A DNA stretch of 64,000 bases. Origin: the human T2T-CHM13v2.0 reference genome, Homo sapiens. The notes beneath the pieces are model-generated. The model had not been told where the DNA came from and searched no databases. It worked only from the letters and a program-made list of their open reading frames with translations. The first letter of the stretch is position 1. The number at the start of each line of letters is the position of its first letter. The translations under genes were made by a program, and so were the position numbers. Of this stretch, positions 40,488-45,200 are shown one piece after another. The DNA is taken from the NCBI RefSeq assembly GCF_009914755.1, contig NC_060925.1; one strand, 5' to 3'.

Positions 40488-40689
40488 TATTAATACTACT
40501 TTGTTTAGCAAAGATGGAATTTACTTGCTAATGATCTTTTATCAGGTCACTCTTCACACAGTAGCATTTATTGTTTTGACCCTGGGAAATAGGTGAGCTT
40601 GTATTCTGTGAAGCCTCTGACCTTTCTCCTTTCCAGTATCTGCTCTTATGTTTTTCAAGGCTATTATCATCTTTTAAAAAAAATGGTTC

Positions 40690-41973
40690 ATGCACCAAAA
40701 AAGAGCCCGCATTGCCAAGTCAATCCTAAGCCAAAAGAACAAAGCTGGAGGCATCACACTACCTGACTTCAAACTATACTACAAGGCTACAGTAACCAAA
40801 ACAGCATGGTACTGGTACCAAAACAGAGATATAGATCAATGGAACAGAACAGAGCCCTCAGAAATAATGCCGCATATCTACAACTATCTGATCTTTGACA
40901 AACCTGAGAAAAACAAGCAATGGGGAAAGGATTCCCTATTTAATAAATGGTGCTGGGAAAACTGGCTAGCCATATGTAGAAAGCTGAAACTGGATCCCTT
41001 CCTTACACCTTATACAAAAATCAATTCAAGATGGATTAAAGATTTAAACGTTAAACCTAAAACCATAAAAACCCTAGAAGAAAACCTAGGCATTACCATT
41101 CAGGACATAGGCGTGGGCAAGGACTTCATGTCCAAAACACCAAAAGCAATGGCAACAAAAGACAAAATTGACAAATGGGATCTAATTAAACTAAAGAGCT
41201 TCTGCACAGCAAAAGAAACTACCATCAGAGTGAACAGGCAACCTACAACATGGGAGAAAATTTTCGCAACCTACTCATCTGACAAAGGGCTAATATCCAG
41301 AATCTACAATGAACTCAAACAAATTTACAAGAAAAAAACAAACAACCCCATCAAAAAGTGGGCGAAGGACATGAACAGACACTTCTCAAAAGAAGACATT
41401 TATGCAGCCAAAAAACACATGAAGAAATGCTCATCATCACTGGCCATCAGAGAAATGCAAATCAAAACCACTATGAGATATCATCTCACACCAGTTAGAA
41501 TGGCAATCATTAAAAAGTCAGGAAACAACAGGTGCTGGAGAGGATGCGGAGAGATAGGAACACTTTTACACTGTTGGTGGGACTGTAAACTAGTTCAACC
41601 ATTGTGGAAGTCAGTGTGGCGATTCCTCAGGGATCTAGAACTAGAAATACCATTTGACCCAGCCATCCCATTACTGGGTATATACCCAAATGAGTATAAA
41701 TCATGCTGCTATAAAGACACATGCACACGTATGTTTATTGCAGCACTATTCACAATAGCAAAGACTTGGAACCAACCCAAATGCCCAACAATGATAGACT
41801 GGATTAAGAAAATGTGGCACATATACACCATGGAATACTATGCAGCCATAAAAAATGATGAGTTCATATCCTTTGTAGGGACATGGATGAAATTGGAAAC
41901 CATCATTCTCAGTAAACTATCGCAAGAACAAAAAACCAAACACCGCATATTCTCACTCATAGGTGGGAATTGA
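40690..41973 (+). pseudogene. Uninterrupted C-terminal third of L1 ORF2p (about residues 851-1275), with no EN domain or RT catalytic core
   Basis: 427-aa [22 protein letters not shown]...[18 protein letters not shown] (CCHC motif)...[10 protein letters not shown]. The ATG comes from the target site. Confidence 0.95.
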
Positions 41974-42294
41974 ACAATGAGATCACATGGACACAGGAAG
42001 GGGAATATCACACTCTGGGGACTGTGGTGGGGTCGGGGGAGGGGGGAGGGATAGCATTGGGAGATATACCTAATGCTAGATGACACATTAGTGGGTGCAG
42101 TGCACCAGCATGGCACATGTATACATATGTAACTAACCTGCACAATGTGCACATGTACCCTAAAACTTAGAGTATAATAAAAAAAAAAAATAAAATAAAA
42201 AAAAAAAAATAAAAAAAAAAGAATTGTAAAAAAAAAAATTATAAATAAAACAAAGAAGAATATGTGAGAGGAAAAAAAAAAAAAAAAAAAAAAA
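40694..42294 (+). mobile_element. 5'-truncated L1HS Ta-1 insertion with 3' transduction
   Basis: Ta diagnostics ACA (42085-42087) and G (42170). Ta-1 diagnostics T41691 and G41694 (cccaaaTgaGtat). Perfect 18-bp TSD aaaaaaaatggttcatgc (40676-40693 / 42287-42304). TTTT/AAAA endonuclease site. Confidence 0.97.
42221..42271 (+). other. 3'-transduced non-L1 sequence with its own poly(A) signal
   Basis: gaattgt-A11-ttataaataaaacaaagaagaatatgtgagagg lies between the L1 tail and the terminal A run, inside the TSDs. AATAAA at 42244-42249. Confidence 0.88.
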
Positions 42295-45200
42295 TGGTTC
42301 ATGCTAAGGAGCTAATAAAAAAAAAAAATTTCTCTCTCCACAAAAAAGAAGACAACTTGTTTCCCATTTGAATCCCAGTTCTGCCACTTGTTAAGTATAT
42401 GATCTTGGTCAAGTTATATAACCTGTTGGTTTCTGTGTGTGTGTGTTTTTTTTTTTCTCATTTGTAAAGTGAGGACAATAGGAGAGTTGTGGGGTGTTTA
42501 GAGAATTAAACGACTATTGTATTAGAGGGAAGGGGAGAAAGGGACAGAAAGTGAAGAAAAGAAGGGAGAGAGGAACAAGTCAGGAAGGAAAACCAGATCA
42601 GCTGATGAAGACAACTCAGCACAAAAGGCAGACGTGATAATATTGGAATTTCTGGCTTTAATAAGAAGCTACTAGTATAGAGGACCTTGCTGAACAGTGT
42701 AGTTGTGTCTAAGAGGGGCTCTACCTTTATATTGCTCTTTTTCCTTTTCCTCTGCTTAACATTCAGCAAGGGTAACTTTAATGATTTAAACAACAATGGA
42801 AAATGGAGGAGAGAAAATGAAGAAAATGTCCACTATGCAATGAGGAATTTTTTTAAAGGGATGGTTCCAACTGGAATGGAGTGAACGGTGTTGTTGGAAT
42901 AGTGCCCTCAGCAGGCAGAGAGTATACATATCTACAGTGTATAAATATCTCAAAATTATTTCACCATGTGATATCGTTTATTCCCTTTTATCGCATACAT
43001 TTTTTAGTCTTATTTAAAAGTTAGAATATGTTTTTAGAATAAACATATGTAATAAATAAAAAATGTTTTCCTTTCTTTTTTCTATTTGAAATGTAATCTT
43101 GGTAATTAAAGAAATGATTTTGGGGTACACAGATTCTTTTGATAATTATCACTTAGGAGGGATACAGGAATTGCCCATAACCCATACCTTTCAAAAGGAT
43201 GTTGAAGTAACAAGTGATCCCACAAGAAAGCTATGCCACCCTTGGATGAGACACCCAAGAAGTTAGAAACAAAAGTCTCCTAATGGTGATAGGAAACTGC
43301 AGCATGGAACTAATTGGAAATCATGTTTGTAATACAGAATGGTGTTTGTATTGTTTAAGATTTGTGAATATTTATTATATTTTCAAAGTATTTCTCAGTG
43401 AGCCTGGTGAAGGCACTAATCAATCAGAACAGACATCTGAACCCTTAGAAAGGACACTTATCAGTCAGGACACATGCTGGCCATTACAGAGTATGTAGGA
43501 CAGATGCTCAGCCTGCTTTTAGGAAGGAAGCCTCAAAGTTCACTTTATCTACTTCATGATGCTGGAGGGCCTCCTGGCCAATGACATTAAGGCAGTCCAA
43601 TGGATTTCCACCTGCACTGTATTTAGCCTGTGATCCCACAGAAAACCAGGACTATTATATCTTTCAATATGATATATGTCATTAAGAATTTGATAAAAAT
43701 TATTATTCTATTCTTCAGAAACGAGCACACTGCATAACACTGCCTATAATATTAGGGAGCTCAAAGATGTTAGAGTCAGCTAGACCTGGGTTTACAGCTC
43801 AATTTTGCTTCTTACTTAGCTTTGTAACCTTGAATAAGTCACTTAAGCCTTCTGAATTACTGTTTTCTCATCTGTAAAATAAAGATATTATTACCTAATC
43901 TTTAGAGCTGTTGAAAGGATAACATGAGATTCTTTCTAACTTCCTTACCTTATTCAAACTATCACAAATAAATAAGAAAAGTCTATATATAATTTTTAAA
44001 AAAATCTTCATTTGTTTGTATTTGTCTAAAGAAAAATTTGTGATACTTTTCCTTAATACAATTTTCTTTGCATGAAATTCCTTTGGAATTTTGTTAATTT
44101 CTTTTCCTTTTATATCACTCAAATCACTAAGCAGAAAATAATAGAATTGTATTGCTGTTTTGACAAGGGTGGGAGAAAATGTGTAGTTCATTTTTATTGC
44201 AGGTTTTGATTGGCTAAAAGTGTGAAAAATAATTAGTTACTCAAGTTGTCATGTAACTCTTCATGAATACAGCTCTCATTTACCATTTCCTTTAGAATCT
44301 AAGAGATGTACCTGTCTAGCTGAATATTTGCTAAATGAATCAGCAATTACTGAGATAGGATTACATGCCCACCCAATATTGACCTTCAAAATAATGAACC
44401 AAATAGCTGAGGAAGTTTATCTATATATTTTAGTAGTATTTCTTGCAATTTTGGCATTTTCTGAAACCAACTTAACATTTTCAAAATTCTTGTAATTAAT
44501 GGCTATTAGCTTATAGAAAGGACAAATGTTTCCTCTCTTCCTAGAATCTCACCTTGAATTTTGGTTGCCTGCTGGGTTACAACTGCCATTTATTCAAAGT
44601 CTACTTGACATGGTCTTTTGTTGCTGCAAAAAAACCCACAGAGTCCTTGTTTGCAGACTTTGTTTTCATATATTTTATGTAACATGTACAACAAAGTCAA
44701 CATTGTAACTAAAATTATGTGGTCATTATTCTTTGCTTGAAAATCTCTGTTGACATCAGAAGTTTACTGTATAGCTTGTCTGTTATCCTTGTAATATGTA
44801 AATTCCTTTTTCATGTTATTCAGCACTGACAGAAGCAGGCTTACTTCATTGTAAAATTATGTTAACTTGTGACTCTTTTAATTTTTCATTCTTGATTCAA
44901 ATATGTAAATAGCAATGATTCCAATTTCACATGCTTCAGTGGTTTCTTAGTAGCCATTAAAAGAAGCTGGTAGGTTCAAAAAGTCTATGTTGGTTATCAT
45001 TATAGAAAATAAAAGTCTTTGTAACTCTAGTTAGTTGCAAAACAGCCCCCTTTTGGGGCTTGCATAGCTGGAAACAATATTAGGGTACAGATTAACATGA
45101 AAAGAAAGGTGTTTGAACTTCCTGGCACACAAAGTCCAAAGATTTCATTCTTGGCTTCCAAAGGATTCAATGTTATTCAACAGTTTCCCTTTGTTGAAAA

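What the first reader, a model, noticed from the sequence alone, without database searches (positions are those of the whole stretch)
40676..42304. Very young L1HS Ta-1 insertion, candidate polymorphic or non-reference
Seen in the sequence: a perfect 18-bp TSD, a TTTT/AAAA nick site, about 425 ORF2 codons with no stop or frameshift, retained CpGs, a pure terminal A23 run, and the diagnostics ACA(42085-87), G42170, T41691 and G41694. Established: Ta-1 is the youngest and most active human L1 clade, and many copies are dimorphic. Inference: this insertion may segregate in humans, with an empty allele reading ...catctttt-aaaaaaaatggttcatgc-taaggagc....
Basis: partly seen in the sequence, partly recalled or inferred. 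Interest (0 to 1): 0.7.

Follow-up and report, generated by a model that had tools for sequence, protein, structure and literature searches.

The report
Known polymorphic LINE-1 with tracer tail
This is a shortened copy of the human jumping gene LINE-1 that some people carry and many lack; its tail holds 51 bases matching the DNA next to a parent copy on chromosome 11, from which it likely jumped, and it is already catalogued, so it is ordinary.

Summary
Real, but already known. The window holds a 1,611-bp 5'-truncated L1HS Ta-1 insertion (40694-42304) with an 18-bp target-site duplication and ORF2 codons 851-1275 intact. It carries a 51-nt 3' transduction (42221-42271) identical to the flank of a full-length L1 at chr11:95.45 Mb and shared with 7 other loci in this genome. 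The element is Ref_Chr1_p31.1_b of the published chr11 transduction family, with an identical TSD (PMC6425141 Table 3). It lies in hg18 and hg19, so 'non-reference' is wrong. 'Polymorphic' is right and already in print. Stewart 2011 lists a validated 1,611-bp deletion with 0 insertion alleles in 28 genotyped CEU samples; such calls required absence from chimpanzee. It was seen in 1 of 12 cell lines and called as a deletion against CHM13 in 1,019 long-read genomes. It cannot jump again, and no protein-coding gene is annotated nearby. Side find: three family members in this genome are not in the 2019 table.

The parts
40672..40679 (-). L1 endonuclease target; minus strand reads TTTT/AAAA, nick inferred between 40676 and 40675
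   Evidence: sequence; consensus 5'-TTTT/AA recalled
40676..40693 (+). 5' copy of the 18-bp target-site duplication
   Evidence: same TSD as Ref_Chr1_p31.1_b in PMC6425141 Table 3
40694..42178 (+). 5'-truncated L1HS Ta-1 body, 1,485 nt, positions 4533-6017 of the chr11 parent; 3 synonymous differences from it
40696..41973 (+). ORF2 fragment, codons 851-1275 plus stop; no promoter, ORF1 or ORF2 codons 1-850
41691..41694 (+). Ta-1 diagnostics T41691 and G41694, 394 and 391 nt before the ACA, the spacing of positions 5535/5538 and 5929
42085..42087 (+). Ta diagnostic ACA in the 3' UTR
42179..42220 (+). first A tract (inherited from the parent's own tail), here A12 T A4 T A13 T A10; pure A in 7 of 7 other family copies
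42221..42271 (+). 3' transduction, 51 nt identical to the DNA after the chr11:95.45 Mb L1, starting in that L1's own 3' TSD; AATAAA at 42244-49, 22 nt before the last non-A base
42272..42286 (+). terminal poly(A) of this insertion, 15 A (A23 run with the 8 A of the TSD)
42287..42304 (+). 3' copy of the target-site duplication

Best explanation
This is a 5'-truncated, polymorphic L1HS Ta-1 insertion carrying 51 bases of the DNA that follows the full-length L1 at chr11:95.45 Mb, and it was likely copied from that L1 by target-primed reverse transcription of a read-through RNA; it is the published element Ref_Chr1_p31.1_b. Inferred steps: transcription of the chr11 L1 ran past its own poly(A) signal and was cut and tailed about 22 nt after an AATAAA in the flank. 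ORF2p nicked the minus strand at TTTT/AAAA and copied about 1.6 kb of the RNA before stopping. The second-strand break 18 nt away made the TSD. With no promoter, ORF1 or ORF2 codons 1-850 the copy cannot jump again, and it likely segregates as a neutral marker at low frequency in the samples reported.
For: TSD, nick motif, diagnostics. ORF2 fragment identical to ORF2p 851-1275. Only the chr11 copy runs on into genomic flank without a second tail, and the transduced block begins with its 3' TSD. The body differs from the CHM13 chr11 allele at 3 of 1,485 nt, all synonymous. It shares C41784 and T42101 with 6 of 6 family copies but with only 1 of 23 other L1HS copies fetched. The chr3, chr9 and chr1 alpha-satellite copies have transductions ending at offsets 42-44, too short to give this one (51-52), and the chrX and chr14 copies are truncated. 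TSD and place match PMC6425141 Table 3. Length 1,611 matches the deletion calls of Stewart 2011 and Schloissnig 2025. Seen in 1 of 12 cell lines by ATLAS-seq, a method that recovered at least 98% of fixed copies. Each flank's full-length match is found once in the genome.
Against: The window copy has C at 41265 where 6 of 6 family copies have T (22 of 23 non-family have C), and A at 41742 where the CHM13 chr11 allele has G. So the exact donor allele is not the one in this genome, and an intermediate donor absent from CHM13 cannot be excluded. Population frequency outside CEU was not found (no rows). Neutrality is inferred from the annotation only.
Confidence: 0.93

Rival explanations
1. Second-generation copy: the direct donor was not chr11 but a full-length daughter that carries the longer transduction (Ref_Chr1_p31.1_a at chr1:83.89 Mb, or a non-reference member), polyadenylated at the same AATAAA.
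For: The chr1:83.89 Mb copy is full-length with both ORFs open, carries the transduction to offset 79 and shares A41742 with the window. It is listed as a source with 3 offspring in Gardner 2017 (supplement row), and the chr14 copy carries its flank.
Against: The CHM13 allele of that copy has G41881 and T41265, which the window lacks. A41742 is also in the chr9 and chr1 alpha-satellite copies, which points to a parent allele rather than to that daughter; PMC6425141 assigns this member to the lineage progenitor (Fig. 2 legend).
Confidence: 0.05
2. One reading: a non-reference or CHM13-private, very recent insertion not yet described.
For: Low observed frequency: 0 insertion alleles in 28 CEU, 1 of 12 cell lines.
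Against: Listed as 'Reference genome' in hg19, as a reference MEI in hg18 and with a euL1db id mrip220.
Confidence: 0.01
3. Assembly artefact, or a segmental duplication rather than a retrotransposition.
For: None found.
Against: Each flank has a single full-length match in the genome. TPRT hallmarks are present. Three independent studies see the same element.
Confidence: 0.01

Closest known systems
Ref_Chr1_p31.1_b (hg19 chr1:83,125,969) of the chr11 lineage-progenitor L1 transduction family, PMC6425141 Table 3
   Same: Identical 18-nt TSD, not full-length, reference element, transduction from the chr11 progenitor; the place corresponds
   Different: Nothing found; it is this element. The sections read do not give its allele frequency.
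Reference MEI P2_M_061510_1_71 / esv4307 (Stewart 2011, PMC3158055 Table S1) and chr1-82500678-DEL-1611 (Schloissnig 2025, PMC12350158 supplement sheet 18)
   Same: Length 1,611, L1HS; Stewart gives + strand, TSD 18 and an inserted sequence that begins as the window's
   Different: Schloissnig's row classes it as 'solo' and misses the transduction; its TSD field is longer than the true 18 nt.
L1HS Ta-1 subfamily
   Same: ACA plus T/G diagnostics at the published spacing
   Different: 5'-truncated and unable to move; carries family markers C41784 and T42101 that 22 of 23 other fetched L1HS copies lack.

Membership tests
L1HS Ta-1 | ACA at 5929-5931 | tested here: met
   42085-87; definition read in PMC12350158 section 53
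L1HS Ta-1 | T at 5535 and G at 5538 | tested here: met
   T41691 and G41694, 394 and 391 nt before the ACA
L1HS Ta-1 | G at about 6015 in the 3' UTR (position recalled) | tested here: met
   G42170
L1HS Ta-1d versus Ta-1nd | 5' UTR deletion near position 72-74 (recalled) | not testable with these tools
   5' end missing; the chr11 parent is labelled Ta1-d in PMC4866827 supplement 3
TPRT insertion | TSD, endonuclease motif and poly(A) tail | tested here: met
chr11 transduction family (PMC6425141) | 3' transduction matching the flank of the chr11 progenitor | tested here: met
   51 of 51 nt identical
chr11 transduction family (PMC6425141) | shared internal variants | tested here: met
   C41784 and T42101 shared with 6 of 6 family copies; T41265 not shared
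polymorphic human-specific MEI | empty allele in humans and in chimpanzee | not testable with these tools
   No other primate or human assembly is held; met according to PMC3158055, PMC4866827 and PMC12350158
retrotransposition-competent L1 | 5' UTR promoter, ORF1 and whole ORF2 | tested here: not met
   starts at parent position 4533, ORF2 codon 851

The most novel reading that the evidence does not exclude
This copy preserves an older, unsampled allele of the chr11 source. It keeps the ancestral C41265 that all 6 other family copies compared have lost, so it would be the earliest branch of the family. The complete genome also extends the family by three unlisted members, among them an intact full-length L1 in chr1 alpha satellite and a nested second-generation transduction on the chr14 short arm.
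Probability: 0.3. Interest if true: 0.3.

Novelty: already known. Interest (0 to 1): 0.12.

Why it matters
Little. It is a catalogued presence/absence marker, usable for ancestry and as a tracer of the chr11 source L1, whose alleles jumped at about 100-135% of L1.3 in culture (PMC6425141). It lies 4.0 kb past the last exon of a predicted lncRNA, with no protein-coding gene within 100 kb by the hub's annotation. The only fresh material is the family bookkeeping: the donor allele, and three members in CHM13 that the 2019 table does not list.

Tried and rejected
Pfam scan of the ORF2 fragment: 0 families at E <= 0.001; identity came from PDB sequences instead. CpG content as an age signal: rejected, o/e 0.199 against 0.17-0.18 in the flanks. 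Dating by private substitutions: 1-2 in 1,485 nt gives 1.7e-5 to 4.9e-3 per site, too wide to use. A paralogous empty site in the genome: none; one full-length match per flank, plus 8 short matches at 74-85% to part of the 3' flank. Exact 19-nt pattern search: 10 matches, 8 of them family loci; chr7:125.6 Mb and chr15:71.98 Mb show no L1 or transduction context in the 200 nt printed and were dropped as chance. 5'-junction microhomology: no terminal match between target and parent. Population frequencies: no rows in the supplements of PMC6425141, PMC7290288 or PMC5668948 (4 of 15 files not searched). The control term for Ref_Chr1_p31.1_a in the ATLAS-seq table gave 0 rows, probably because the term missed a minus-strand coordinate; unresolved. 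The search for a paper stating positions 5536/5539 found 0. No fold or complex job was run; none would change the verdict.

Full report
Observation. The 18-bp duplication at 40676-93 and 42287-304 is perfect, and its non-A core occurs nowhere else in the window. The insertion between the first copy and the end of the second is 1,611 bp. The 425 open codons align with identity over all columns to ORF2p 851-1275 of solved structures; Pfam gave no family. ACA, T41691 and G41694 sit at the spacing of the published Ta-1 definition (PMC12350158, Methods section read). Two points are weaker than written. The A23 run includes 8 A of the duplication. CpG o/e (0.199) is close to the flanks (0.18, 0.17), although the count equals the parent's (12 and 12).

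The 93 nt between the L1 end (42178) and the terminal tail are an A tract with three T's and a 51-nt non-L1 block (42221-42271). A genome search with the tail returned 38 matches, of which 7 besides the window stand out (E <= 9e-27; the next is 1.6e-11): chr9:12.57, chr14:6.28, chr11:95.45, chr1:83.89, chr1:126.65, chrX:75.63 and chr3:38.60 Mb. An exact 19-nt pattern found the same 8 loci and 2 chance hits. All 7 have an L1HS 3' end before the block. Only the chr11 copy runs on into genomic DNA without a second tail, and the block begins within that copy's 3' duplication. It is full-length with both ORFs open (338 and 1,275 aa). So the block is a 3' transduction and chr11 is the family's source. 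The window's block is identical to the chr11 flank over 51 nt and ends 22 nt after an AATAAA.

Relation to the parent. Over 1,485 nt the window differs from the CHM13 chr11 allele at three sites, all synonymous. G41553 is in 0 of 29 other L1HS copies fetched. A41742 is in 3 of 6 family and 2 of 23 other copies. C41265 is in 0 of 6 family and 22 of 23 other copies. The 29 were the top loci returned of 40 scored from 1,870 candidates, so they are the closest copies and not a random sample. C41784 and T42101 are shared with all 6 family copies and 1 of the 23 others. The donor was therefore likely a chr11 allele other than the one in this genome; PMC6425141 reports two alleles in one cell line. 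C41265 is either a reversion or the trace of an older allele. The chr5:40.29 Mb copy (L041) carries T41265 and both family markers without the transduction, which leans towards reversion if it is a sister of the chr11 copy and says nothing if it is a daughter.

What is known. PMC6425141 (parts 2-3 of 9 of the text, passages, one supplement search) lists Ref_Chr1_p31.1_b at hg19 chr1:83,125,969, with the same 18-nt duplication, not full-length, source 'Reference genome', among 14 members of a family founded by the chr11 L1. PMC3158055 (one supplement row and passages) lists hg18 chr1:82,898,546-82,900,157: L1HS, +, 1,611 bp, TSD 18, detected as a deletion and validated by assembly. The empty allele was seen in 5 of the 6 trio samples, with 0 insertion alleles in 28 genotyped CEU and no genotypes for the other groups. 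That class of call required the element to be absent from the chimpanzee assembly. PMC4866827 (supplement rows and passages) found hg19 chr1:83,127,492 in 1 of 12 cell lines, with at least 98% recovery of fixed copies. As controls, the chr11 term gave 24 occurrences (two per row; 6 rows shown) and the chr9 term 15 (6 rows shown). PMC12350158 (one supplement row; the file is cut) lists chr1-82500678-DEL-1611 against CHM13, classed as solo, and also a deletion call for the chr11 parent. Presence in GRCh38 was not checked.

Mechanism. Shown: the structure, the family link and the lack of promoter, ORF1 and ORF2 codons 1-850. From established L1 biology (recalled) and inferred for this copy: read-through of the chr11 L1's poly(A) signal, cleavage in the flank, a nick at TTTT/AAAA on the minus strand, target-primed reverse transcription that stopped after about 1.6 kb, and an 18-nt staggered second break. 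The family uses several cleavage points behind this flank: offsets 42, 44, 51-52 and 79. A daughter as direct donor is possible but less likely. Of the copies in this genome only chr1:83.89 Mb is both full-length and long enough, and its CHM13 allele has G41881, which the window lacks.

Age. Ta-1 membership and low observed frequency make it recent in human terms. 'Very young' beyond that is not shown. The inherited A tract has three T's where 7 of 7 other copies are pure, the own tail is 15 A, and the substitution count cannot date it.

Verdict. Already known; interest 0.12. Three family members in this genome are absent from the 2019 table. Tables I could not see may list them.

Noticed in passing
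L012:7369-8180 (G000:C14, about 6,284,370-6,285,180): Second-generation, nested transduction on the chr14 short arm: 785 nt 100% identical to the chr1:83.89 Mb L1's 3' end, its chr11 transduction, its tail and about 0.5 kb of its own flank, then a new poly(A). It sits in the 3' end of an older L1 (90% to L1HS) within 171-bp satellite. Not in the 2019 table.
   Followed up: partly
L013:1204-7320 (G000:C1, about 126,641,700-126,647,820): Full-length family member with both ORFs open (338 and 1,275 aa) and a duplication of about 13 nt, inside 171/337-bp satellite near the chr1 centromere; 14 differences from the chr11 allele. Not in the 2019 table.
   Followed up: partly
L014:4280-7700 (G000:C23, about 75,625,280-75,628,700): 3.4-kb 5'-truncated family member with the longer transduction (offset 79) and a duplication of about 16 nt, inserted among older L1 pieces; 0 differences from the CHM13 chr11 allele over 1,485 nt. 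Not in the 2019 table.
   Followed up: partly
L041 (G000:C5:40,290,417-40,294,017, minus strand): L1HS with the family markers (T41265, C41784, T42101 in window numbering) and a long pure A tail but no chr11 transduction: a sister or an untagged daughter of the chr11 copy.
   Followed up: no
window 40690-41973: An ATG in the target duplication (40690-92) is in frame with the ORF2 fragment, giving a 427-codon frame; weak start context and no known transcript.
   Followed up: no
window 48679-49399 (minus strand): Older 5'-truncated L1 piece, 93.8% to L1HS, without the Ta diagnostics; fainter L1 pieces at 19545-20230, 29732-30006 and 31209-31961.
   Followed up: partly
window 40428-40492: 29-nt inverted repeat, 90% complementary, 7 nt apart; looks like a MADE1/mariner-type miniature element (label recalled) about 180 nt upstream of the insertion.
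   Followed up: no
L026 and L043 (G000:C12:87.73 Mb and C4:83.28 Mb): Two other L1HS copies share the same sequence after their tails, which suggests a second transduction pair.
   Followed up: no
G000:C3:38.59 Mb (L015): The hg19 non-reference 'donor L1' of PMC6425141 is present in this genome, full-length with both ORFs open; the chr7q21.3 member listed there was not returned.
   Followed up: partly
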